Notes under the pieces: generated by a model
The model's input: the letters and a program-made list of their open reading frames with translations, nothing else
Told to the model about the DNA's origin: nothing
Database searches by the model: none
Source of the DNA: Patescibacteria group bacterium
GTDB taxonomy: Bacteria; Patescibacteriota; Minisyncoccia; Phycocordibacterales; JACOZG01
NCBI GenBank assembly: GCA_034658935.1
Contig: JAYEGE010000002.1
Coordinates: 1-51,162, forward strand
DNA length: 51,162 nt
Direction: 5' to 3'
In this document: piece by piece, positions 3,980-49,306 of the stretch
How positions within the stretch are numbered: the stretch's first letter is position 1
Layout of the letters: every line of letters starts with the position of its first letter
Program-made: the position numbers and the translations under genes

Positions 3980-4032
3980 AATATTAGTGTATTAGTCCCC
4001 ATATTCTACCCTCTTTAACAAAAGGAGTGTAC

Positions 4033-4061
4033 TTGACATAGGCAGATTGGGCTGTTAATCT
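4033..4061 (+). promoter_or_regulatory. Sigma70-type promoter
   Basis: TTGACA-N17-TAATCT with TG extension, 6 nt upstream of ATG 4068. Confidence 0.55.
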
Positions 4062-4067
4062 TCCGAT

Positions 4068-4181
4068 ATGCCTAATCACGGCTATAAGTTAATGAATATT
4101 TGCCTTTTGGCTACCGATTCCCAGGTGGCCGACTTTGCTATTCTATTTAGCCGTGATTTCTCTAAACAAACCCGTGCATAA
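4068..4181 (+). CDS. 37-aa putative leader peptide (MPNHGYKLMNICLLATDSQVADFAILFSRDFSKQTRA)
   Basis: Directly after the promoter and followed by a terminator hairpin at 4214-4243. Confidence 0.4.
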   Translation: MPNHGYKLMNICLLATDSQVADFAILFSRDFSKQTRA

Positions 4182-4213
4182 TTCATAACTCCCCTCCCCC
4201 TCGCACTTAGAGC

Positions 4214-4243
4214 AATCCCGGCTGAATAGAAGCCGGGATTTTT
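4214..4243 (+). terminator. Intrinsic terminator / possible attenuator
   Basis: aatcccggct...agccgggatt followed by ttt. Confidence 0.7.
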
Positions 4244-4285
4244 ATTTAGCGCTAGTACATTATTAGTTAGTTAGAAAGGAAAAGT

Positions 4286-4434
4286 ATGACTGAAACATCG
4301 AATGTGGTTACCATGAGGAAGGACGCCAGCGTGAACAACATTTCGTTGAGGGACGCTACCACGACCACATCAACTTAGCGATCTTCAAGGCTGATTTCGA
4401 GCCAGTCTGGCAGGCTTACTGCTCAGCCAAGTGA
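4286..4434 (+). pseudogene. C-terminal remnant of a RimJ/RimL-type GNAT acetyltransferase
   Basis: Frame 4303-4434 reads CGYHEEGRQREQHFVEGRYHDHINLAIFKADFEPVWQAYCSAK*; the SD-led ATG at 4286 is out of frame. Confidence 0.55.
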
Positions 4435-4438
4435 ACCT

Positions 4439-4471
4439 AAACACCAACCTACCCGGGGGTTGGTGTTTTTT
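4439..4471 (+). terminator. Intrinsic terminator
   Basis: aaacaccaacc...ggttggtgttt plus T run. Confidence 0.7.
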
Positions 4472-4503
4472 CCGAATTTGGACACGCCGTGTCCAAATTC
4501 GGA
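4471..4503. repeat. Palindromic element (aatttggacac family)
   Basis: tccgaatttggacac-gcc-gtgtccaaattcgga, 15-bp perfect arms. Confidence 0.85.
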
Positions 4504-4574
4504 TAGTTATCCCCAAGGGCACCCCCTAGATTTTTTCGCCATTTCAATTATGATGAATATTCCTGACGAAAATA

Positions 4575-4799
4575 ATGATTGGCATTGTCGGAAACTTTCT
4601 TAAAATTATCTTAGTCTGCGCTTATGCGCTGATACTTTTGCCAAACGTAGCACTTGCCTCCTGGCTCTGGCCTAAACGTAAAAATATTGAATGTCGCTAT
4701 AAGCGCTTCGCTTTTTCCACAATTCTCATGCCCGTAGTGGCCATCGCTGCCACCTCTGCTAAATTTGAAGAGCTGTTCAACGGGATGACCAAGTTTTAG
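4575..4799 (+). CDS. Small two-TM hypothetical protein
   Basis: 74 aa, two hydrophobic segments; its stop overlaps the convergent ATP-grasp stop. Confidence 0.45.
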   Translation: MIGIVGNFLKIILVCAYALILLPNVALASWLWPKRKNIECRYKRFAFSTILMPVVAIAATSAKFEELFNGMTKF

Positions 4800-6356: not shown

Positions 6357-6377
6357 CCCTTCTAAATTGACTATGTA

Positions 6378-6632
6378 TTACGAAGTTAGTTTGTCAATAT
6401 TTTGTATCATTTTTTTGGGTATGAAGTAGAAAGTGGGACTCTTGCTTGGATGCTTCACATTGTCCTTGATATTTCGAGTAACAGGATTACTAATGATTAT
6501 GTAATCTTCTGTTTCTTTAGCCACGTACCCCACAGTTTCCATTTCATGTAGCGCCTCATCCAGATAGCGATGTTTGTATATAACCGCATCCCTCCAGACT
6601 ATATTTACTCTCTGTCCTTCTTTATTGGTCAT
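6378..6632 (-). CDS. Small beta-rich hypothetical protein (W-x-D-A ... IPK family), paralog 2
   Basis: VNIVWRDA...TVGYVAKETEDYIIIS...FIPKKMI. Confidence 0.7.
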   Translation of the reverse strand: MTNKEGQRVNIVWRDAVIYKHRYLDEALHEMETVGYVAKETEDYIIISNPVTRNIKDNVKHPSKSPTFYFIPKKMIQNIDKLTS

Positions 6633-8593: not shown

Positions 8594-8786
8594 TAGTCAT
8601 ACTTTAACAAATAATAAGCGGTACTAGTAAGGGCCAGTGATTTTACGGGGGATATTTTCTCAACCTCCGGACCTCTAGTTTGTCTGATTATATAAAACTA
8701 TCTTACCATAATGTTTCAGGATTAAGGTAATCTTAACCGTTCCCTAGGTTCAACAAGTAATTCCATACACTTTGATATAGTCAAAG

Positions 8787-9740
8787 TGTATAGAATTCAA
8801 ACATTTTACGATTGAGGAGCGCGAAAAGATACAAGAATTACTCTGGCAAAAAGTCTCGGTCAGGAAGATTGCCAAAGTACTTGACCGATCGCCATCCTCA
8901 ATCTCACGAGAGACCAACAAGAACATTCCCCTTGAACGGTCATACAAACCACGAGTAGCTCAGGAACGAGTAATTAAGAAACGATCTTGTCGTGGTCACC
9001 AGCTCTGTCTAAAGAGTGGCTTCATTCGTCGGTACGTTGTCGCTAGCCTCAAATCGGGTCTATCGCCAGAACAAATAGCTGGTCGACTCTCTATCGACCA
9101 CCCCGAAGAGTCAATCTCTCATGAAGCTATCTCAATACATCTACTCTGTAGTACACCGAGAGGGGCATGGACACCTGAAGCCGTACTACCACGATCTCCG
9201 TCCATATCTGAAACGTCGATATAAGCGTCGGGTCAAAAAGGGTCTACGTAAATCACGGCGTATATTTAAACCAAGGGGGCCTTCTCTTGAGAACAGACCG
9301 ATAGTGGTTGGAGAGCGAAAACGTGTTGGCGATTGGGAAACTAATACGGTGGAAAGTGTGGGCCACAAACGTGGTCTCAACACCTTAGTAGATCGTAAGA
9401 GTGGTCTGGTGATAATCTCTAGACTTAAAGACAGAACATCGCAAGCGACCACTGAGGCTATTGCCAAGAGATTGAGAAATTAACTCAAACAAAATGCTGT
9501 TATGCCCATCCCTACGCCTCTTGGGAACGTGGCACCAACGAGAATACCAACGGTCTCATTAGGTGGTACCTACCCAAAGGCACAGACTTTGATACTATTA
9601 GTGACGAGCAACTAAAAACCATCGAATACGCTCTAAATACTCGCCTCAGGAAACGTCATCATTGGGGAACTCCCTTAGAAGTATTTAACGAAGAAGTGAG
9701 TCATTACCAGCCAAGTGTTGCATTAAGAGGTTGGATGTAC
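8787..9740 (+). mobile_element. IS30-family transposase remnant (frameshift near 9130, stop and internal deletion near 9483)
   Basis: FKHFTIEERE HTH, SPEQIAGRL, SISHEAI/YQYIY, GDWETNTV, HPYASWERGTNENTNGLIRWYLPKGTDF; right end tgttgcattaagaggttggatgtac resembles an IS30-type terminal IR; left IR not found. Confidence 0.88.
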
Positions 9741-9901
9741 CTTCTAAAACAAGACTTAAACTTTATGGAATTGTTGTCGGTATTAAATAATTTGCGAACC
9801 GTGAGGCCCGACGACAATCACCCTCATAGATATTGCTTTATCTTGCTCTTGTTGTTAGACTACAACAACAGATTTTATTAATTTTTGAGCTGGTAATTCC
9901 C

Positions 9902-10738
9902 ATGTTTAATACTCGCAACGATACAATAGTCAGAAGCCTAATGGATTACGGCCTCAGCGAAAAAGAGACGCTGGTCTACCTGGCTACTTTAAAATTAGAA
10001 GTCGCCACAGCCCAAGAGATCGCCAAGATAGCGGACGTAAACCGAAGTTCAACTTATGTAGTCCTGGAGACCCTCACAAAGAAGGGGTTAGTTGGTATAT
10101 CTGACGACAATAGCGTAAGACGCTATGTGGCCACTTCCCCTGAAGTCCTAGCACAAAACGCCAAAAACCTAGCATCTAAACAGGAAAATATCAAAGAAAA
10201 AATCGTCGATATCTTACCGGAATTGAAAGCCCTTCACAAAGACACGAGAAACAGACCGAGAGTTAAAATTTTTGAAGGCGCAAATGGCATAATGGAAGCC
10301 CTAGAGGATACTTTGGGATGTCGGGAAAGGAAAATTAGAATATATTCAGCAATAGAAAACGTCGCCAAACTATTGCCGCGAAATTATTTTGTCGCTTACG
10401 TTACCAATAGACTTAAACGCAAAATTAGCATGAGCGGCATACATCCGGATAACGAGACCTCCAGGATGTTAACCAAAACAGAAGCAATAAGAATAGACAA
10501 GCCTCTGTTAATACAAGACAAAAGGTACAAATTCCCAGCAGATCTGGCAATCTATGATGATAAAATAGGATATATGTCAGGAGAAGGAGGTGGTCTTGCT
10601 ATTATTATAGAGAGTCCGGCAATGGCTGAAACCATGAAGAATGTCTTTGATTTAGCCTGGGAACGAGCCGAGGACTTGGTCACTCGTCAGTCTGGGGCTA
10701 TGAGGCGTAGCGACAATCGGACAACCAAGTCGAAATAA
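9902..10738 (+). CDS. TrmB-like transcriptional regulator (wHTH plus PLD-like sensor domain)
   Basis: YGLSEKETLVYLATLKL...AQEIAKIADVNRSSTYVVLETLTKKGLV, FEGANGI, IYDDKIGYMS; ATG 9902 preferred over the track start. Confidence 0.88.
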   Translation: MFNTRNDTIVRSLMDYGLSEKETLVYLATLKLEVATAQEIAKIADVNRSSTYVVLETLTKKGLVGISDDNSVRRYVATSPEVLAQNAKNLASKQENIKEKIVDILPELKALHKDTRNRPRVKIFEGANGIMEALEDTLGCRERKIRIYSAIENVAKLLPRNYFVAYVTNRLKRKISMSGIHPDNETSRMLTKTEAIRIDKPLLIQDKRYKFPADLAIYDDKIGYMSGEGGGLAIIIESPAMAETMKNVFDLAWERAEDLVTRQSGAMRRSDNRTTKSK

Positions 10739-16783: not shown

Positions 16784-16803
16784 GTTTTGTATTATAAATA
16801 TAA

Positions 16804-16830
16804 AGACGGGAGGCCGCGATCGGCCTCCCT
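16804..16830 (-). terminator. Hairpin with weak U-tract between the micro-peptide and the C39 gene
   Basis: gggaggccg-atcg-cggcctccc followed by gtctttat. Confidence 0.55.
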
Positions 16831-16840
16831 ATGACAGAAG

Positions 16841-16915
16841 TTAGCTACCTGGGCCACTACCCCTGCCACTACCGGAACTTCCACCGCCCCCGCCGAAGCA
16901 ATGCACAAAACTCAT
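16841..16915 (-). CDS. 24-aa Gly/Ser-rich micro-peptide MSFVHCFGGGGGSSGSGRGSGPGS; not in the ORF track
   Basis: Strong SD AGAAAGGAG shortly upstream, ATG 16915, TAA 16841-16843, varied Gly/Ser codons, downstream hairpin. Confidence 0.65.
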   Translation of the reverse strand: MSFVHCFGGGGGSSGSGRGSGPGS

Positions 16916-17225
16916 AGCGCTCTCCTTTCTAGCCTCTTTCTTATCTCCGCATAAGAACATATTTATGGTTAAGCCAACCTCAACCATCTAGACTTAAGAT
17001 TAGAGCATGACGTATTGTTGTCGATAGATGACAATAGAGAAAAACGGATGACTAAAATGTCAAATCATATCGTATCGACAAAACACCAGATGGCAGACAC
17101 CAAAAGACTTTTAGCTTTACTTGTCAATAACTTGTAACAACTTTTTTCTTGTAGCACACGAACTACCTATCCCCGTCACTGAGAGCCAACATCTCATAAG
17201 CAAAGCTTCGATGTGGCGGATAAAA

Positions 17226-19028: not shown

Positions 19029-19361
19029 ATGGCGAGAGATCAGGGATTTCACGATTACATAGTTTACGACCTATTGAGCGAGCTGCCGGACCTACGGTCG
19101 CGAGGGATGTTCGACGGCCATGGTTTGTATCAAAAGGATACCTTTTTTGGCTTCGTCAATGAAGGAGTACTTTATTTGAAAACTGGGGAAGCTGATCGCA
19201 GTGAATATAAGGAATACGGCTCTGCCCCCTTCTCCTACCCTCGAGCAGGCAAAACTGCCACCCTCCACACTTATTGGGCCGTGCCTGGAGAAATCTTAGA
19301 CGATCCTCCCCGCCTCCTCGAATGGGCCGAACGCGCAATCCAAGCCACACTTGATAAGTAA
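19029..19361 (+). CDS. TfoX/Sxy N-terminal domain protein
   Basis: RSRGMFDGHGLY...FGFVNEGVLYLK...PFSY...YWAVP...LLEWA. Confidence 0.85.
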   Translation: MARDQGFHDYIVYDLLSELPDLRSRGMFDGHGLYQKDTFFGFVNEGVLYLKTGEADRSEYKEYGSAPFSYPRAGKTATLHTYWAVPGEILDDPPRLLEWAERAIQATLDK

Positions 19362-19385
19362 ATTTGGACACTGCGTGTCCAAATT
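19361..19385. repeat. Palindromic element (aatttggacac family)
   Basis: aatttggacac-tgc-gtgtccaaatt at the tfoX stop. Confidence 0.85.
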
Positions 19386-31540: not shown

Positions 31541-31592
31541 TGGATGGAACAGAGAAAGAAAAGACGTCGTTATGTCATCTCTCTTCCCTTTC

Positions 31593-31639
31593 TTCTCTTG
31601 TCAGAGACCCGAACCGCGAGGGACATTCCCTCACTTCTG
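31593..31639 (-). repeat. 47-nt structured leader, copy 1
   Basis: 46/47 identical to 32812-32858; contains a GAGGGA-AUG-UCCCUC hairpin. Confidence 0.9.
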
Positions 31640-31644
31640 TTGTG

Positions 31645-31673
31645 AAGCTATCATGCAATAGGCCATTTGTCAA
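31645..31673 (-). promoter_or_regulatory. Promoter TTGACA-N17-TAGCTT (TG-extended)
   Basis: Same geometry as the promoter at 32864-32892. Confidence 0.6.
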
Positions 31674-32785: not shown

Positions 32786-32811
32786 CTCGTTCCACCTTTC
32801 TTTCTCTATTT

Positions 32812-32858
32812 TTCTCTTGTCAGAGACCCGAACCGCGAGGGACATTCCCCCACTTCTG
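32812..32858 (-). repeat. 47-nt structured leader, copy 2
   Basis: Near-identical to 31593-31639. Confidence 0.9.
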
Positions 32859-32863
32859 ATTTC

Positions 32864-32892
32864 AGACTATCATATTATGAAGTGGTTGTCAA
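32864..32892 (-). promoter_or_regulatory. Promoter TTGACA-N17-TAGTCT whose -35 lies in the last alaS codons
   Basis: alaS ends TTG ACA ACC ACT TCA TAA, supplying TTGACA. Confidence 0.55.
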
Positions 32893-34743
32893 GGTCGCCT
32901 TAATGCGGCGGATGCCGGCGGAGGTTGCTTCTTCTTTTTTGATTTTGAAAACCAGGTCGCCATCGGGGCCAGTCAAATCAGCGGTATTGCTAACATGCGG
33001 TCCGCCGCAGAACTCGATTGAAAAGGCCTCATCAAATTGTGGATCCTCGGCAGTAGCGTCAGCTGGGCCCACCGAGTAGACGGAGACTCGCTCTGGATAC
33101 TTAGCGCCAAACTCATGTTCAGCATTTAATTTCTCAGCTTCCTCAGAAGCCATCTCGGTATGGAGTACCGGCAGACCCTCCTTTATCTTTTCATTTACGG
33201 TTTTCTCCACCTCTTGCTTTTGCTCGTCGGTCATCTTCTGTCTATAAATAAAATCGATCCGCAAGCGCTCGGCAGTGATATTACTCCCCCGCTGTTTAAC
33301 CTCTGGCCCAAGAACTATCTGTAGAGCCTTGAGTAGCAAGTGGTGGGCGGTGTGCAAGCGAGTCGTCACCTCTGACGCATCAGCCAGCCCACCCTTAAAT
33401 TTTTGATCGAGGCCCGCTTTTGAGGCCTCCCTATGCTTCTTCATTTGTTTATCAAACTTAGCTTCGTTGATCGTCGTCCCCTTCTCCTGGGCCAATTCTT
33501 TAGTCAACTCAATAGGGAAACCATAACTAGTGAAGAGGATAAAGGGGTCAGTTCCTTTTTCAAATTCCTTTAACCCCCGAGTCAGGGTTACTCTGAACTT
33601 ATCTTCTTCATTCTGGATTTCCTCTGCAATCTTTGAACTTTGGTCTTTGACATTGGAGTAAGTCTCCGCGTACTGATCAGCCACAATGTTCACCAATTCT
33701 GACAACCCACCCGACTTGATCCCCAAAACATCCCCATATCGCACTGCCCGGCGGAGGAGACGGCGGAGAACATAGGCCTGTTCAACATTGCCCGGCTTTA
33801 CTCCGGCAGCAATGAGAAACACTGAGGCTTTAATGTGATCGGCTACGATCCGCATTGCCTTCTTGTCCTCTCCCCAACATTCAGGTTCTATGTCGTAACC
33901 CAAGTCGCCCTTGATAAAACAGTATTTTTTGCCACTTAACTCCTCTATTTTTTTGATAATCTCAGCGTGATTGGCCAAGAAGATATCGCTATTGTTCTGA
34001 GCAGCCATCGTTAAGCGTTCTAGACCGCCGCCAAAATCTACGTTGCGTCGTGGGAGCATAGTGAAGCTGCCCTCAGTCCTCTGATATTCCATGAAGACGT
34101 TATTGCCAATCTCGAGGAAGCGCCCACAATCACAATTAGGATGGCATTTCTTGCCGAACTTGGGATCATGCTCAACATTCTCAAATTCGTAGAATACCTC
34201 CGAGTCTGGCCCGCCCGGTTCACCTGCCGGCATACCCTGTGGCGGACCAGAGCGGCTCCACCAATTCTTCCCCACACCATAGAAAGCAATTTGGTCTTCA
34301 GGAATTCCTAATTCTTTCCAAATAGCAGCTGACTCGGTATCACGAGGCAACTTAAATTCCTCGTTACCCTCAAAGCAAGTCACCCAAAGACGCTCCTTGG
34401 ATACGCCAAGCTCTTTTGTTAGAAATTCAAAAAACCAACCCAATTGCTCTTGTTTGAAATAATCCCCCAAAGACCAATTGCCAAGCATTTCAAAAAAGGT
34501 GGTATGCCTATTGTCCCCCACCTCATCAATATCAATTGCCCGGAAACATTTCTGAGAATCGGCTACCCGTTGGCCCTCTGGATGATCCTTGCCCAAGAGG
34601 TACGGGATTAGCGGCTGCATACCCGAACCAGTGAAGAGGGTTGAGGGATCATTTTCAGGCACCAAAGAGGCCGGGGGCAAGATGGTATGTCCTCGCGCTT
34701 GAAAAAAGTCCAGGTAGCGCTTGCGAACTTCGTTAGCGGTCAT
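32875..34743 (-). CDS. alaS: Alanine--tRNA ligase, short form without the C-Ala domain
   Basis: LFTGSGMQP, HTTFFEMLGNWS, DFGGGLER, ADHIK, HTAHHLL, EFCGGPHV. Confidence 0.97.
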   Translation of the reverse strand: MTANEVRKRYLDFFQARGHTILPPASLVPENDPSTLFTGSGMQPLIPYLLGKDHPEGQRVADSQKCFRAIDIDEVGDNRHTTFFEMLGNWSLGDYFKQEQLGWFFEFLTKELGVSKERLWVTCFEGNEEFKLPRDTESAAIWKELGIPEDQIAFYGVGKNWWSRSGPPQGMPAGEPGGPDSEVFYEFENVEHDPKFGKKCHPNCDCGRFLEIGNNVFMEYQRTEGSFTMLPRRNVDFGGGLERLTMAAQNNSDIFLANHAEIIKKIEELSGKKYCFIKGDLGYDIEPECWGEDKKAMRIVADHIKASVFLIAAGVKPGNVEQAYVLRRLLRRAVRYGDVLGIKSGGLSELVNIVADQYAETYSNVKDQSSKIAEEIQNEEDKFRVTLTRGLKEFEKGTDPFILFTSYGFPIELTKELAQEKGTTINEAKFDKQMKKHREASKAGLDQKFKGGLADASEVTTRLHTAHHLLLKALQIVLGPEVKQRGSNITAERLRIDFIYRQKMTDEQKQEVEKTVNEKIKEGLPVLHTEMASEEAEKLNAEHEFGAKYPERVSVYSVGPADATAEDPQFDEAFSIEFCGGPHVSNTADLTGPDGDLVFKIKKEEATSAGIRRIKATLTTTS

Positions 34744-34791
34744 ATTAGAAATTGTCCATCATCTTCATCTTAACAAAATTTGAGTATAAAT

Positions 34792-35128
34792 AAAAAAAGA
34801 GCCCCGATGCAGCAACATCGGGGCGCTTAGTAGTGCCCCCACCCTTGCACTCGCAGGAGCACCACGGCAAGTGGCTATGAAAACTCAAACGCAGGGGCAG
34901 GTCAAGGCCATCACTCCCGACCGCCCCTGCCAAGGAGGCGCTCCCTAAGAAATAGGGATGCGGTAGGCGAAAAAAGAGGCGGAGCAGGAACCAATCCTGC
35001 TTCACTTCGACCGGATGTCCCACAAAAGGACCGTACGCCAAAAAAAAGAACTAGGTCAAAATGGGGGCAGGTGCGACCCCGCATCGCACCTACCCCGGCA
35101 GGAACTCCCCGTCGCCAGTCTTCATCCA
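34792..35128 (-). ncRNA. Candidate structured ncRNA or alaS leader (unassigned family)
   Basis: Promoter TTGACA-N17-TAGCAT at 35163-35135, several GC-rich hairpins, terminator at 34801-34824 plus U run, no convincing protein. Confidence 0.5.
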
Positions 35129-35247
35129 CATTCAATGCTACTCCCCGATTCCCAAGCTGTCAAGAGTCAGCTCAAGCCCGGTGGATAACTCGGCGTGTAT
35201 ACCTTGACAACATAACCCCACTAGGTTGGTGAGGAATTGTTTTTTGG

Positions 35248-37638
35248 TCATTGAAATAATTGTTTTAATGAACCCCATACCTCTGTCTTTTTAAAGATAG
35301 CATTTAGATAATCTTCATCTATCTCCCCGCTTATGTTAATCGGTAAGAATATCTTTAATTGATCAACTTTATTTTCATAGCATTTTCTGCCGTAAGAAAA
35401 ACGCCATTTTAGACTATTTATCTGTGTAACAAAGAATAGTAAGGTCGAAAATTTATATTCTCTTAGTGGCTTACATAAGAGTACGTTGTCTTTTGCTGTA
35501 AATTGATAATAATGATAAAAACTTGTTAGGGGTGCCCCGTCTGAAGCTATTGTTATTGCATTTTGTAGTATGTGTTTCTTATTTTCTATATTATAAAATC
35601 CTTCAAAACCACAATCAACACTGACACAAGATACTAAAGGAATTTTTCCCTCATCTAACTCACTACTTTTGTGATAGTTACCTGTCTTAATTGGTGCCTC
35701 AAACAAGTCTGTTAATAAGAATTCTTTCCATTGGACATTCTCATCATAAGCTGAATTTGAAAAAAACTTTTTTTCTTTTTCTATAACGTTCTTTTTAAAT
35801 TCGTTGAGTCTGTTGTATTTTATCATTGAAGAGATGAAATTTCTCATTTCAATATCAATTCTCTTATACAAAACATCATCACTTGGTTTTTTTTCATCTA
35901 GGTAGACTTGCGGTAACAATTCAAGATTTTTATCTTGGAAATCAATCTTTTCAGTTTTTATAAATTCCTCAATATTTCTGATTTTCATTGAGGGATCTTT
36001 TATAAAATCCTTTACTATATCAGCGATTTCATTTAACTGGTTTGGCTCTTTTTTGTTAGATATTCTTTTTCCTTTAACCTTTAAAAAGCCGTCTTTATCA
36101 ACTTTTACCCATAAGACATTTTGGTTATGGTTGTGAGAAACTCCTTTTTTTATATAAAAACCTAATGTATGAGTGCCAACAGGATAAAATAAGTCCATTG
36201 GAAATGTAACAACCGACAAGAGTGTGTTTTTCTTCAACATCTCAGTTCTCCATTGAATAAATTTTGCTTGTTTTACTAACGCCCCAACAGGAAGGACACA
36301 AAATAGGATACCCCCGTCCTGCATTTGGTTTAACGCTTGTTCAATAAATTCAAATTCTTTTTTTTCCTGACTAAAAGGAGGATTTATCATCACCTTTGTT
36401 ATTGGTCGTATTCTATCTTCTTCATTTTTATCAAGATATTCCGCTTTGATATCTCCACTTTCTGTTCTTGATACAGCAAGCCATTTATTAAAACAATTCC
36501 CTTCGATCATGTTTGTTTTTCCATCACCTCTAAAAATCATATTCACAATGGCGAGAGAAATAATCGGATCTTGTTCTTCTATCCCATAGATGCCATTCTG
36601 TTTAAAGTTTTCAAATTCTTTTTTATCTTTTGTCTTTCTTTTAACTTCATCATAAGCAGATACAAGAAATCCGCCTGTTCCACAGGCCAGATCTAAAACT
36701 AAATCATGTGCGTCAATGTCTAATGTATATGATGCAAACCTTGTTATATGTCGTGGGGTTAACACAATACCGATTTCTTTTGCACCGTTTCCGTATTTCA
36801 AAAATACTTCATAAAATTCTCCTAAAACATCTCTACCAGAGTTCATTGCTGATCGGATATTCAAATCAAGCAACTTTTGATAAGTCCTTTTTATGGCGTC
36901 TTTTACTTTTACATGGTTATCCTCACTTGAAGGCTCATCTATTCTTATAAATTTTGCAAAATCTTGTTTTTTATGATTTCGTAAAATCAGTTCAACTTTT
37001 TTATTTACGTTATTTATTAAAACAAGGGCGTTTTCATTTAGATTCAAATTTTCACCCGTGGTCATTGATAAAAGTATTGCTGACATGAATCTAGCACGAT
37101 AATCTTTGTTTATTGAGTTTTCATGTAAAATCTTGTTGACTTCAATTGCTGTTTTTAAAAATTCATCTTCAGAAATCTCAATGTCTTCGATAAGGGCAGA
37201 CTTATTTTTTAAAATAGTATCTATTTGTTGTAAAGATAAAATGCTTGTTATTTCAACATCATTTTCTTTAATTAGATCCCAATTACTACCATTAAAATAG
37301 TAACTTTTAGAGATATACCCCTCATCTTCATTCCCCGCAACACCAGTAACAAAAAGGACTTTAATTTTTTTACTCTGGTTTATTTTTTTTGCGTATTGAT
37401 TTTTTGCCTCGTCGATAGCTATTTCTATTTTTGATTTTTCATTTTTACCCTCAATTACATAGAAGATTTCTTCTTTTACTTTTATTACGTTTTCAGGTCT
37501 ATCTAAGACTAGATATTTTTTTACTTCTTCTATAGTTAAACATTCCTGTTGAGTATAAACATTTTTTTTATCCCAACCCTTTTTTAGGATCTCATCTAAG
37601 ATATATTTATAACATGCAACTTCTGATTTCTTTATCAT
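35248..37638 (-). CDS. Single-chain restriction-modification enzyme (nuclease + N6-adenine MTase + TRD; type IIG/IIB-like)
   Basis: N-terminal PENV...IEGK nuclease-like motif, LDLACGTGGFL, NPPF, C-terminal HsdS-like TRD; visibly AT-rich. Confidence 0.88.
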   Translation of the reverse strand: MIKKSEVACYKYILDEILKKGWDKKNVYTQQECLTIEEVKKYLVLDRPENVIKVKEEIFYVIEGKNEKSKIEIAIDEAKNQYAKKINQSKKIKVLFVTGVAGNEDEGYISKSYYFNGSNWDLIKENDVEITSILSLQQIDTILKNKSALIEDIEISEDEFLKTAIEVNKILHENSINKDYRARFMSAILLSMTTGENLNLNENALVLINNVNKKVELILRNHKKQDFAKFIRIDEPSSEDNHVKVKDAIKRTYQKLLDLNIRSAMNSGRDVLGEFYEVFLKYGNGAKEIGIVLTPRHITRFASYTLDIDAHDLVLDLACGTGGFLVSAYDEVKRKTKDKKEFENFKQNGIYGIEEQDPIISLAIVNMIFRGDGKTNMIEGNCFNKWLAVSRTESGDIKAEYLDKNEEDRIRPITKVMINPPFSQEKKEFEFIEQALNQMQDGGILFCVLPVGALVKQAKFIQWRTEMLKKNTLLSVVTFPMDLFYPVGTHTLGFYIKKGVSHNHNQNVLWVKVDKDGFLKVKGKRISNKKEPNQLNEIADIVKDFIKDPSMKIRNIEEFIKTEKIDFQDKNLELLPQVYLDEKKPSDDVLYKRIDIEMRNFISSMIKYNRLNEFKKNVIEKEKKFFSNSAYDENVQWKEFLLTDLFEAPIKTGNYHKSSELDEGKIPLVSCVSVDCGFEGFYNIENKKHILQNAITIASDGAPLTSFYHYYQFTAKDNVLLCKPLREYKFSTLLFFVTQINSLKWRFSYGRKCYENKVDQLKIFLPINISGEIDEDYLNAIFKKTEVWGSLKQLFQ

Positions 37639-37717
37639 TTACTAATCATAACAGGTACATAAAAAAACAAAAGTCGTTGAAAATCAAAAAGTGTTGATAA
37701 CTTATTCTATCTATTGA

Positions 37718-38902
37718 TTATGTAATAATGGTATACACGCCGATAACTCCCCCACCCAGCATTTTTTGCTTATCGTAGATAACACAGGACTGACCCAAGG
37801 CCAAAGCTGGAGGCGGCTTGAGAAATTCCACTTTATCACCATCGACTCGGCACTCATAAAGTTCCCCATGATAGCGAACCTGCGCCTGGTAAGTTTTACC
37901 ACTGTCCGGTGACGCACCAGAGATCCAGTTGATATTTGTGAGTGTGGCCCACTTGGACATTGAATGTCCAAGTGACTCATTCTGACTTGGACATTCAATG
38001 TCCAAGTTGCCGTCCAAATTATGGGCAACCACTAATTGGTTCTTTTTGATATCCTTGGCAACTACATAATATGGTTTGTCGCCTGACGTCTTCTTGGTGA
38101 TAGTAAAACCGTGGCGTTCACCAATAGTACAAAAGACAGCCCCATCATGTCGGCCGATTATTCCCCCCTTCTCATTTAATACTTGCCCGCGTTTCTCTGG
38201 GATAAACTTTTTCAAAAAATCCTTCACTGATAATTGACCGATGAAGCACAGACCCTGACTATCTTTCTTCTCAGCGTTCGGCAGGCCAAATTTCCTGGCT
38301 AATTTTCGCACCGCCTCTTTTTTGTATTTACCAATGGGGAACAAGCAATGCTCGAGCTCGGCTTGAGTGAGAATCCAAAGGAAATAAGATTGATCCTTGG
38401 CTGGGTCTTTACCTCGCAATAACTTGAACTTGGACATTGAATGTCCAAGTGACTCATTCTGACTTGGACATTCAATGTCCAAGTTATTCGAACGGGCATA
38501 ATGTCCCGTCGCCATCCGCCAGTCGGCGGACCCCGCTCGCTTCATCGCCCAATCGAAAAAGGCGCCAAACTTAATCTCTTGATTGCACATCACGTCAGGG
38601 TTGGGTGTCCGGCCGGCCCTATATTCACCCACCATATAATCCACCACTTCGTCTTTGTATTCTTTAGATAGATCAATGGTTAGTAATGGGATATCTAGAT
38701 GGGCCGCCGCCCGCATCGCCTCTCGGCGTTCTTCACGCCAGGTGCATTCTATTCCCCACTCCTCATTGAAATCAGTTATCTTTATGAAAACGCCCACCAC
38801 CTCATGGCCTTCTCCCCGCAACAAAGCTGCCGCGACAGAAGAATCAACTCCTCCGGACATGCCTACATAAACCTTTTTCTTTTTTCCAGGCCGCTTCTTC
38901 AT
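37718..38902 (-). CDS. mnmA: tRNA-specific 2-thiouridylase with two 19-aa palindrome-derived inserts
   Basis: GMSGGVDSSVAA, PNPDVMCN, ATGHYAR, KDQSYFL, DSQGLCFIG, ALGQSCVIY; ATG 38902. Confidence 0.96.
   Translation of the reverse strand: MKKRPGKKKKVYVGMSGGVDSSVAAALLRGEGHEVVGVFIKITDFNEEWGIECTWREERREAMRAAAHLDIPLLTIDLSKEYKDEVVDYMVGEYRAGRTPNPDVMCNQEIKFGAFFDWAMKRAGSADWRMATGHYARSNNLDIECPSQNESLGHSMSKFKLLRGKDPAKDQSYFLWILTQAELEHCLFPIGKYKKEAVRKLARKFGLPNAEKKDSQGLCFIGQLSVKDFLKKFIPEKRGQVLNEKGGIIGRHDGAVFCTIGERHGFTITKKTSGDKPYYVVAKDIKKNQLVVAHNLDGNLDIECPSQNESLGHSMSKWATLTNINWISGASPDSGKTYQAQVRYHGELYECRVDGDKVEFLKPPPALALGQSCVIYDKQKMLGGGVIGVYTIIT
37951..38008. repeat. 58-nt double-palindrome insert in mnmA, copy 1
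   Basis: acttggacattgaatgtccaagtgactcattctgacttggacattcaatgtccaagtt. Confidence 0.95.
38428..38485. repeat. 58-nt double-palindrome insert in mnmA, copy 2 (identical)
   Basis: Same 58 nt; both copies encode NLDIECPSQNESLGHSMSK. Confidence 0.95.
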
Positions 38903-38958
38903 TCCTTTCAATTTAGCTTTTTGACGCGAGTGAGGCAAATCAGTATCATAAGGAAACT

Positions 38959-49170: not shown

Positions 49171-49306
49171 ATATAATAACGTTGAAACTAAGCTTCCCTT
49201 ACTGCCATTATCTCACCTCCCGGCAACATTGACAAGTGTGGACAAAAATGATAGATAAAGGCTAGTTTGGTCCTTGTCAGGACTGGTATCAAAAACAATT
49301 CTAGGG

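What the first reader, a model, noticed from the sequence alone, without database searches (positions are those of the whole stretch)
34792..35163. About 335-nt GC-rich structured RNA upstream of alaS with a terminator/antiterminator switch
Seen on the minus strand: consensus TTGACA-N17-TAGCAT, then stems GGGGUAGGUGCGA/UCGCACCUGCCCC, GCAGGA/UCCUGC, CCCUA/UAGGG and GCAGGGGCGGUC/GACCUGCCCCUGC, and a terminator GCCCCGAUG/CAUCGGGGC-U-run about 50 nt before alaS. Just upstream, AAGGGUGGGGGCAC can pair with GCGCCCC and would exclude the terminator. Known: T-box riboswitches use AAGGGUGG-N-ACC in this position upstream of aaRS genes; here the ACC, and a clear specifier loop, are missing. Inference: a divergent T-box-like or new attenuator for alaS, or an independent ncRNA.
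Basis: partly seen in the sequence, partly recalled or inferred. Interest (0 to 1): 0.7.

Follow-up and report, generated by a model that had tools for sequence, protein, structure and literature searches.

The report
Hairpin-and-terminator spacer upstream of alaS
The GC-rich stretch before the alanyl-tRNA synthetase gene of this uncultured Patescibacteria (CPR) bacterium is a real chain of stable RNA hairpins with its own promoter and several terminators, but it is not a T-box and probably does not switch alaS, which has its own promoter just downstream.

Summary
The ~337-nt RNA folds far better than shuffles (z = -7.35).

It is not a T-box. Rfam gives no T-box, RNase P, tmRNA, SRP or 6S match even at E<=10. 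The same model finds a clear T-box (E = 6e-18) between mnmA and alaS in another CPR genome, L040, so the negative result is informative.

The element is absent upstream of alaS in about 180 relatives. Only two genomes with the same mnmA-alaS layout, L081 and L175, carry hairpin and U-run arrays there. Their sequences are barely or not alignable to the window.

alaS has its own extended -10 (TGtTAAGAT) after the terminator, conserved in L081 and L175. In 97 of 142 CPR alaS loci a -10-like hexamer ends 5-9 nt before the ATG, which indicates leaderless mRNAs.

Best reading: a lineage-specific, non-coding, self-terminating unit of tandem intrinsic terminators with an orphan promoter. It would shield the alaS promoter from upstream transcription. 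An orphan sRNA or a non-T-box attenuator remains possible. No RNA data exist. Interest is low to moderate.

The parts
35135..35163 (-). Sigma-70-type promoter TTGACA (35163-35158), 17-nt spacer, TAGCAT (35140-35135). Predicted transcription start about 35128.
   Evidence: 10 of 12 consensus matches. TTGACA-N16-18-TAG occurs 5 times against 1.0 expected, all intergenic and facing genes. L081 has TTGACA 3 nt after the mnmA stop.
35090..35125 (-). Possible leaderless 11-codon mini-ORF (MKTGDGEFLPG*), with its ATG 9 nt after the -10. Probably not a conserved peptide.
   Evidence: Sequence. L081 and L175 also have an ATG 4-9 nt after a -10-like hexamer, but the peptides are unrelated and contain no Ala codons. 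Inference only.
35058..35096 (-). H1: 14-bp hairpin followed by CAUUUU (weakly terminator-like). A U8 run follows at 35047-35040.
   Evidence: I3; -29.2 kcal/mol, z = -4.75.
35017..35032 (-). Small hairpin GGUCC / GGGAC.
   Evidence: predicted only.
34970..35008 (-). H2: stem with 14-nt arms (12 pairs, 2 mismatches) followed directly by U6 (34975-34970). Terminator-like.
   Evidence: I5; -16.2 kcal/mol, z = -3.0. Not reported by the strict terminator scan, which does not allow mismatches in the stem.
34943..34957 (-). H3: CCCUA / UAGGG hairpin.
   Evidence: L175 has a different small hairpin (CCUC / GAGG) at the aligned position.
34880..34930 (-). H4: long bulged hairpin GCAGGGGCGGUC...GACCUGCCCCUGC followed by GUUUGAGUUUU (moderately terminator-like).
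   Evidence: -30.5 kcal/mol, z = -4.2. It shares the core GCGGUC/GACC(U)GC with the final terminator of L175 in the local alignment.
34832..34863 (-). H5: GGUGCUCCUGC / GGGUGGGGGCACU hairpin containing the 'AAGGGUGG' string (34846-34839). Its G-run is the proposed antiterminator strand.
   Evidence: -20.1 kcal/mol, z = -4.0.
34792..34824 (-). H6: canonical intrinsic terminator (10 pairs, 7 G-C, loop of 4) plus U7.
   Evidence: -21.7 kcal/mol, z = -5.7.
34767..34775 (-). alaS's own extended -10 promoter element, TGtTAAGAT.
   Evidence: AAATTTTGTTA(A)GAT is the only significantly conserved stretch against L081 (p about 0.01) and is also conserved in L175. In L081 and L175 it sits 7 and 6 nt before the alaS ATG. 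Of 142 CPR alaS loci, 97 have TAnnnT ending 5-9 nt before the ATG.
34745..34762 (-). Mini-ORF ATGATGGACAATTTCTAA (MMDNF*) at the predicted 5' end of the alaS mRNA. Its stop lies 1 nt before the alaS ATG.
   Evidence: It occupies the position of the alaS ATG in L081. Its role (re-initiation) is inference.
32875..34743 (-). alaS (622 aa, short CPR form).
   Evidence: (tRNA-synt_2c 2.5e-114, tRNA_SAD).
35184..37749 (-). Transposon-like 2550-bp AT-rich insertion (35192-37741) carrying an N6-methylase gene. It is bounded by ~24-26-bp inverted repeats and an 8-bp direct duplication GAGTTATC (37749-37742 and 35191-35184). It separates mnmA from the RNA promoter and is not part of the RNA.
   Evidence: (I6). 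Removing it restores an mnmA ending ...GGVIHRA* 8 nt before TTGACA, the layout seen in L081.

Best explanation
The element is a lineage-specific, non-coding, self-terminating transcription unit. A real promoter (TTGACA-17-TAGCAT) that ancestrally sat right after the mnmA stop drives an A-poor, G/C/U-rich RNA. That RNA is a chain of independent stable hairpins. Two of them (H2, H6) are canonical intrinsic terminators and two (H1, H4) are weaker ones. Most transcripts should therefore end inside the element, at about 70, 160, 250 or 337 nt. alaS is then transcribed separately from its own extended -10 (TGtTAAGAT), 17-25 nt downstream of the last U-run, as a leaderless or near-leaderless mRNA.

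The function I commit to is tandem termination, that is, insulation. The array stops transcription coming from mnmA, from the inserted methylase element and from its own promoter before it can run over the alaS core promoter. There is no ligand- or tRNA-sensing switch.

Shown: the elements, their stability, the absence of known RNA families, the lack of conservation upstream of alaS, and the conserved alaS -10. Inferred: promoter activity, the termination sites and the insulating role.
For: Elements and stability.

Promoter class enriched 5-fold and always facing genes.

Not coding. The 98-aa ORF has no homologues among 1.84 billion representatives, only itself and repeat junk. A content of 12.8% is unlike genes of this genome.

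alaS's own promoter. The AAATTTTGTTAgAAT block is conserved in L081 and L175, 6-7 nt before the ATG. In 97 of 142 CPR alaS loci a -10-like hexamer ends 5-9 nt before the ATG, against 24 in a control window. Within the window only 3 of 42 genes have an SD-like motif. Several genes show terminator, then -10, then 6-9 nt, then ATG.

The two genomes that share the mnmA-gap-alaS layout also carry hairpin plus U-run arrays that end in a strong terminator directly before the alaS -10. L081 has about 85 nt with one terminator and L175 has 272 nt with two. Sequence similarity is at or near noise. This is the pattern expected for selection on termination rather than on a specific RNA.
Against: No RNA-seq exists for this organism, so promoter use and 3' ends are untested. 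A strong promoter feeding directly into terminators is wasteful if insulation is the only function, which favours an sRNA role. Other CPR genomes with adjacent mnmA and alaS manage with gaps of about 85-110 nt and no terminator (L010, L015, L059). L175 has no recognisable promoter. Four long, near-perfect hairpins are more than termination needs.
Confidence: 0.45

Rival explanations
1. Orphan trans-acting or protein-binding small RNA. The promoter and terminators define one or more stable RNAs (about 70-337 nt) whose hairpins have a specific cellular function unrelated to alaS.
For: It has an orphan promoter of a credible class plus terminators, it is GC-rich relative to the genome (58-60% vs 47%), and it has a strong fold z-score. 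L081 has the same promoter-hairpin-terminator layout in the same place. A top-of-173 local alignment to L175 covers H2-H4.
Against: There is no significant sequence conservation with L081. The L175 alignment score (35) is close to noise scores of 30-33 from unrelated loci. Loops lack the GNRA or A-rich features typical of tertiary-structured RNAs (12.8% A). No copy or relative was found in the window, the loci, phages or plasmids. No Rfam family matches.
Confidence: 0.25
2. Non-T-box cis-regulatory attenuator. Transcription from the TTGACA promoter reads into alaS when a factor (AlaRS, tRNA, or translation of the leaderless mini-ORF) disrupts H5 and lets the G-run pair with the terminator's 5' arm.
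For: An alternative pairing that excludes the terminator exists and is the best fold of the nascent RNA. L081 also has a 10-bp alternative, CUAAGGGGAC / GUCUCCUUGG, that competes with its terminator. The element sits directly upstream of an aaRS gene. T-box control of alaS at this same mnmA-alaS position exists elsewhere in CPR.
Against: Read-through would have to pass H1, H2 and H4 as well as H6. H5 forms first and is compatible with the terminator, and the full fold favours the terminator by 16.5 kcal/mol. alaS has a conserved own -10 and CPR alaS is typically leaderless. Close relatives have no leader at all. The mini-ORF has no Ala codons. G-rich and C-rich alternative pairings are expected by chance in GC-rich hairpin arrays.
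Confidence: 0.12
3. Non-functional debris. The hairpins would be relics of palindromic or mobile insertions, or the terminators of lost genes, with a fortuitous or left-over promoter.
For: This genome carries palindromic insertions even inside mnmA, a TIR/TSD-bounded insertion next door, and a duplicated promoter-plus-terminator unit 3 kb away. Other CPR alaS-upstream gaps hold MITE-like palindromes and repeats (L092, L075, L024, L012). The sequence is not conserved.
Against: No second copy of any hairpin occurs in the 51-kb window. CPR genomes are compact, yet three related genomes keep an array at this exact place. The last terminator and the promoter are of good quality.
Confidence: 0.15
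4. Divergent T-box riboswitch sensing uncharged tRNA-Ala.
For: The element is upstream of alaS, ends in a terminator, and contains the string AAGGGUGG (34846-34839).
Against: There is no RF00230 hit at E<=10, with a positive control in CPR at E = 6e-18. The GGGUGGNACC core is absent at the site. UGGG would not pair with the ACCA end of tRNA-Ala (PMC4695836). AAGGGUGG is not positionally conserved: L081 has AAGGGGAC, and in L175 the string lies in a different hairpin.
Confidence: 0.02

Closest known systems
Tandem Rho-independent (intrinsic) terminators and transcriptional insulators between genes
   Same: GC-rich hairpins are followed by U-runs (H6 and H2 canonical, H1 and H4 weaker). They lie between a convergently read upstream unit and the core promoter of the next gene. 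Structure is kept across relatives while sequence is not.
   Different: Up to four such hairpins plus two non-terminator hairpins lie within 337 nt, and they are preceded by their own strong promoter. The stems are unusually long (13-20 bp).
Orphan intergenic sRNA genes (promoter plus terminator units as predicted by SIPHT/sRNAPredict-type logic)
   Same: The unit has an orphan sigma-70 promoter and an intrinsic terminator, is non-coding, is GC-rich relative to the genome, and folds stably.
   Different: There is no expression evidence, no conserved sequence, and no identifiable seed or protein-binding motif. The internal terminators would truncate it.
T-box leader (Rfam RF00230), e.g. B. subtilis / C. 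acetobutylicum alaS and the CPR example L040 3724-3941
   Same: The position upstream of alaS (in L040 it is even between mnmA and alaS), a terminal terminator, and a G-rich strand that can pair with the terminator's 5' arm.
   Different: There is no covariance-model match, no Stem I / Specifier Loop, no UGGU-ACC antiterminator bulge and no conservation. An independent alaS promoter lies downstream.
Leader-peptide attenuators of aaRS genes (E. coli pheST / pheM)
   Same: A short ORF at the 5' end of a terminator-containing leader upstream of an aaRS gene.
   Different: The mini-ORF (MKTGDGEFLPG) has no alanine codons, is not conserved, and is about 270 nt (four hairpins) upstream of the final terminator.

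Membership tests
T-box leader (RF00230) | Significant match to the family covariance model (Stem I, Specifier Loop, Stem II/IIA-B, Stem III, T-box/antiterminator) | tested here: not met
   no T-box hit at E<=10 in window 34600-35400; none at the gathering score in the whole window. Positive control: L040 scores 81 bits, E = 6e-18, full model 1-219.
T-box leader (RF00230) | T-box sequence with an antiterminator bulge UGGN-ACC, where N complements the tRNA discriminator (UGGU for tRNA-Ala) | tested here: not met
   GGGTGGNACC with <=1 mismatch is not found at 34832-34846, and window-wide counts are at chance. The sequence there is GGGUGGGGGCAC (UGGG, no ACC). The UGGU requirement comes from PMC4695836.
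T-box leader (RF00230) | Mutually exclusive terminator and antiterminator helices | tested here: inconclusive
   an alternative pairing exists (nascent fold -27.1 kcal/mol). However, the G-run is sequestered in H5, and the full-length fold with H5 plus terminator is -43.6.
T-box leader (RF00230) | Conserved upstream of the regulated aaRS gene in relatives | tested here: not met
   no similarity in 164 alaS loci; the closest AlaRS relatives have 0-143-nt gaps; no T-box in L081 or L175.
Intrinsic (Rho-independent) terminator | Stable GC-rich hairpin immediately followed by a U-run | tested here: met
   H6. H2: stem followed directly by U6, with two mismatches allowed. H1 (CAUUUU) and H4 (GUUUGAGUUUU) meet it only partly.
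Independent sRNA gene | Own promoter and terminator, non-coding, with a detectable transcript | tested here: inconclusive
   Promoter. Terminator. Non-coding. Transcript: not testable, since no RNA runs exist.
Housekeeping RNAs (RNase P RNA, tmRNA, SRP RNA, 6S RNA) | Match to the Rfam models, or ARAGORN for tmRNA | tested here: not met
   As a control for tmRNA, the same Rfam search mode finds the L012 tmRNA at E = 7.8e-47.
Leader-peptide attenuator (pheST type) | Leader ORF enriched in codons of the cognate amino acid and overlapping the alternative helices | tested here: not met
   The mini-ORF at 35125-35090 encodes MKTGDGEFLPG with no Ala. The L081 and L175 counterparts are unrelated.

The most novel reading that the evidence does not exclude
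The hairpin arrays at mnmA-alaS in the window, L175 and perhaps L081 are one fast-evolving, CPR-lineage-specific structured RNA family. It would act as a new, non-T-box attenuator or regulator of alaS, for example by factor-dependent read-through of tandem terminators feeding a leaderless gene. It could have replaced an ancestral T-box such as the one still present at this position in L040.
Probability: 0.1. Interest if true: 0.6.

Novelty: new member of a known kind. Interest (0 to 1): 0.25.

Why it matters
If the best reading is right, this is ordinary gene-boundary architecture, tandem terminators plus an orphan promoter, in a poorly sampled CPR lineage. Its main value is as a caution: a terminator and a G-rich string upstream of an aaRS gene are not enough to call a T-box.

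The by-products are of some interest for how these reduced bacteria organise transcription and translation. They are: pervasive leaderless alaS promoters across CPR, a real T-box between mnmA and alaS in a Saccharibacteria genome, and a transposon-like methylase insertion in mnmA.

If instead the array is a conserved regulator, it would be a new aaRS control element in a phylum where almost no RNA regulation is known.

Tried and rejected
- Known RNA families: Rfam at the gathering score on the whole window, and at E<=10 on the region. ARAGORN. Nothing found.
- Homology of the RNA: blastn/nhmmer against 80 GTDB and 80 JGI alaS loci, the window itself, phages and plasmids. Nothing found.
- More relatives: AlaRS scans of genome, metagenome and viral collections, two protein searches and all 12 context look-ups. 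Only L081 and L175 have comparable gaps.
- L081 against the window: only the alaS promoter block is significant.
- L175 against the window: p about 0.003 against shuffles, but only marginally above real-sequence noise. Homology is therefore not claimed.
- Internal tandem-module idea (M1-M4): the MAFFT alignment is unconvincing and TRF finds nothing.
- Coding hypothesis: the 98-aa ORF has no homologues. The plus-strand open frame is a composition artefact.
- AlaRS-binding acceptor-stem mimic (G3:U70): none of the stems has it, by reading the sequence.
- RNA-seq: no runs hold the stretch. Runs for L081 and L175 could not be queried.
- Strain variation: Logan contigs show one variant-free contig.
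- A sliding z-score scan timed out and was replaced by a GC-regressed MFE scan.
- MAFFT did not reproduce the local window/L175 alignment, so no covariance model or formal pair count was built from two sequences.

Full report
**Context.** The window is a contig of an uncultured Patescibacteria/CPR bacterium, Parcubacteria-like. Its AlaRS is 68% identical at best to any protein in 5.8 billion, and the named hits are Kaiserbacteria or Parcubacteria. The stretch is held by a single brine-metagenome DNA run. There it lies on one variant-free contig at depth 15, and no RNA run holds it.

On the minus strand the gene order is mnmA (37718-38938), an AT-rich (about 30% GC) N6-methylase gene (35248-37638), the finding, then alaS (32875-34743; 622 aa).

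**Observation.**
- Promoter TTGACA-17-TAGCAT at 35163-35135.
- H1 at 35096-35064.
- H2 at 35008-34976, followed by U6.
- H3 at 34957-34943.
- H4 at 34930-34891.
- H5 at 34863-34832, which contains AAGGGUGG.
- Terminator H6 at 34824-34801, followed by U7. This is 49 nt before the alaS ATG.

The 351-nt RNA folds at -170.9 kcal/mol against -131.8 +/- 5.3 for shuffles (z = -7.35). Each hairpin is individually significant (z from -3.0 to -5.7). The minus strand folds 30 kcal/mol better than the plus strand. The RNA is only 12.8% A.

The promoter hexamers alone are at chance level. However, TTGACA-N16-18-TAG occurs 5 times in the window against 1.0 expected, and every site is intergenic and faces a gene. 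I therefore regard the promoter as credible.

**Not a known RNA.** No Rfam family reaches the gathering score anywhere in the window. At E<=10 the region gives only chance matches to terminator-containing sRNA models, and no T-box, RNase P, tmRNA, SRP or 6S. ARAGORN finds nothing.

The negative T-box result is informative because of a control. In L040, a Saccharibacteria genome, the same search finds a full-length T-box (81 bits, E = 6e-18) lying between mnmA and alaS, with the UGGU-ACC bulge expected for tRNA-Ala (features from PMC4695836). In the window the corresponding string is GGGUGGGGGCAC. It reads UGGG, has no ACC, and does not match GGGUGGNACC.

**Not coding.** The 98-aa ORF across the region matches only itself and a repeat artefact among 1.84 billion representatives. 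The open frames are by-products of the skewed composition.

**Not a conserved alaS leader.**
- The region has no similarity to the alaS-upstream DNA of 164 relatives.
- The closest AlaRS relatives (63-68% identity) have upstream gaps of 0-143 nt. Where the upstream neighbour is divergent, the gap is 39-50 nt (L166, L170).
- mnmA-alaS adjacency is common in CPR. Where the two genes are directly adjacent the gaps are short, about 85-110 nt, and lack hairpins.

Only two genomes with the same layout carry something comparable.
- L081 (AlaRS 68%) has a 143-nt gap. It holds TTGACA 3 nt after the mnmA stop, one small hairpin and one strong terminator.
- L175 (Zip-mnmA-272 nt-alaS; AlaRS about 59%) has a structured gap (z = -4.3) with two hairpin plus U-run units.

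Against L081, only the block next to alaS is significantly similar. Against L175, a local alignment covers H2-H4. It beats shuffles (p about 0.003) and ranks first of 173 real upstream regions. Its score of 35 is close to scores of 30-33 from unrelated loci. I treat this as positional and architectural correspondence, not proven homology.

**alaS has its own promoter.**
- AAATTTTGTTAAGAT (extended -10 TGtTAAGAT, 34775-34767) lies just after the U7 run.
- It is conserved as TGtTAGAAT in L081 and TGcTAGGAT in L175. There it ends 7 and 6 nt before the alaS ATG, which indicates a leaderless mRNA.
- Of 142 CPR alaS loci, 97 have a TAnnnT hexamer ending 5-9 nt before the ATG (mode 6-7 nt), against 24 in a control window.
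- Within the window only 3 of 42 genes have an SD-like motif and 11 have a -10 in the leaderless position.
- The pattern terminator, then -10, then ATG recurs at genes ending at 2249, 16783 and 31482.
- In the window the ancestral start position is occupied by ATGATGGACAATTTCTAA (34762-34745). Its stop lies one nucleotide before the true alaS ATG. This suggests a very short leader or re-initiation, which is inference.

**The switch idea.** The G-run of H5 can pair with the terminator's 5' arm, and this is the best fold of the nascent chain (-27.1 kcal/mol). But H5 (-20.1) forms earlier and coexists with the terminator, and the complete RNA prefers H5 plus terminator (-43.6). Transcripts from 35128 must also pass H1, H2 (stem followed directly by U6) and H4 first. 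L081 has a 10-bp competitor of its terminator too. A non-T-box attenuator is therefore not excluded, but nothing specific supports it.

**Ancestral layout.**
- The methylase gene is a 2550-bp insertion (35192-37741).
- It has ~24-26-bp terminal inverted repeats and an 8-bp target duplication, GAGTTATC.
- It sits inside the 3' end of mnmA.
- Removing it puts the mnmA stop 8 nt before TTGACA, as in L081. The RNA unit therefore predates the insertion and is not part of it.

**Conclusion.** The best-supported reading is a lineage-specific, non-coding, self-terminating unit. An orphan promoter feeds a chain of hairpins, of which two to four are intrinsic terminators. This ends transcription ahead of the leaderless alaS promoter (confidence 0.45). 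The rivals are:
- An orphan sRNA with a specific function (0.25).
- Relic or palindromic debris (0.15). This genome has palindromic insertions even inside mnmA, and a duplicated promoter-terminator unit nearby.
- A non-T-box attenuator (0.12).
- A divergent T-box (0.02).

No expression data exist and only two distant comparators are available. The choice among the first three readings rests on inference.

Noticed in passing
window 35184-37749 (insert 35192-37741): The AT-rich N6-methylase/R-M gene is a transposon-like insertion into the 3' end of mnmA. It has ~24-26-bp terminal inverted repeats (35190-35215 vs 37718-37743) and an 8-bp target-site duplication GAGTTATC, and it carries no transposase. 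It gives MnmA a new C-terminus (GVYTIIT* instead of HRA*).
   Followed up: partly
window 37951-38008 and 38428-38485; also 4475-4499 and 19361-19385: Two identical 58-nt composites of the palindrome ACTTGGACATTGAATGTCCAAGT lie in frame inside mnmA, encoding the duplicated peptide NLDIECPSQNESLGHSMSK. Related palindromes AATTTGGACAC..GTGTCCAAATT occur elsewhere. They resemble Rickettsia-palindromic-element-like insertions in coding sequence.
   Followed up: no
L040 3724-3941 (+): A full-length T-box leader (RF00230, 81 bits, E = 6e-18; UGGU-ACC bulge) lies between mnmA and alaS in a Saccharibacteria (CPR) genome. It scores below Rfam's gathering threshold of 93, so routine annotation would miss it.
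   Followed up: partly
window-wide; 142 CPR alaS loci (L001-L184): Leaderless architecture. Only 3 of 42 window genes have an SD-like motif, and 11 have a -10-like hexamer 5-9 nt before the start. In 97 of 142 CPR alaS genes TAnnnT ends 5-9 nt before the ATG (peak 6-7 nt).
   Followed up: partly
window 6371-6397(-), 31648-31673(-), 32867-32892(-), 35138-35163(-), 49229-49254(+): A promoter class TTGACA-N17-TAG(nnn) is 5-fold enriched over shuffles, and every site is intergenic and faces a gene.
   Followed up: partly
window 31590-31654 / 32809-32873 and terminators 31713-31685 / 31539-31512: An 89%-identical 65-nt duplication of the promoter and first codons of the 363-aa ORF downstream of alaS, together with a duplicated terminator. 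This creates an orphan promoter-miniORF-terminator unit between two genes.
   Followed up: no
window 34745-34762: The mini-ORF ATGATGGACAATTTCTAA sits where relatives have the leaderless alaS ATG. Its stop is 1 nt before the real alaS ATG (UAAUAUG), which could allow re-initiation.
   Followed up: no
window 3980-4795, 8594-9120, 9484-10651, 16784-17225: These are large stretches with no ORF of 80 aa or more in an otherwise compact contig. They have no Rfam or tRNA hits and their content is unexamined. The 4381-4560 segment is strongly structured on both strands.
   Followed up: no
L092, L075, L024, L012 (alaS-upstream gaps): Other CPR alaS-upstream gaps contain large inverted repeats, palindromes or tandem and direct repeats (fold z from -3 to -9). 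These are unrelated to the window element. L012 160-554(-) is a tmRNA.
   Followed up: no
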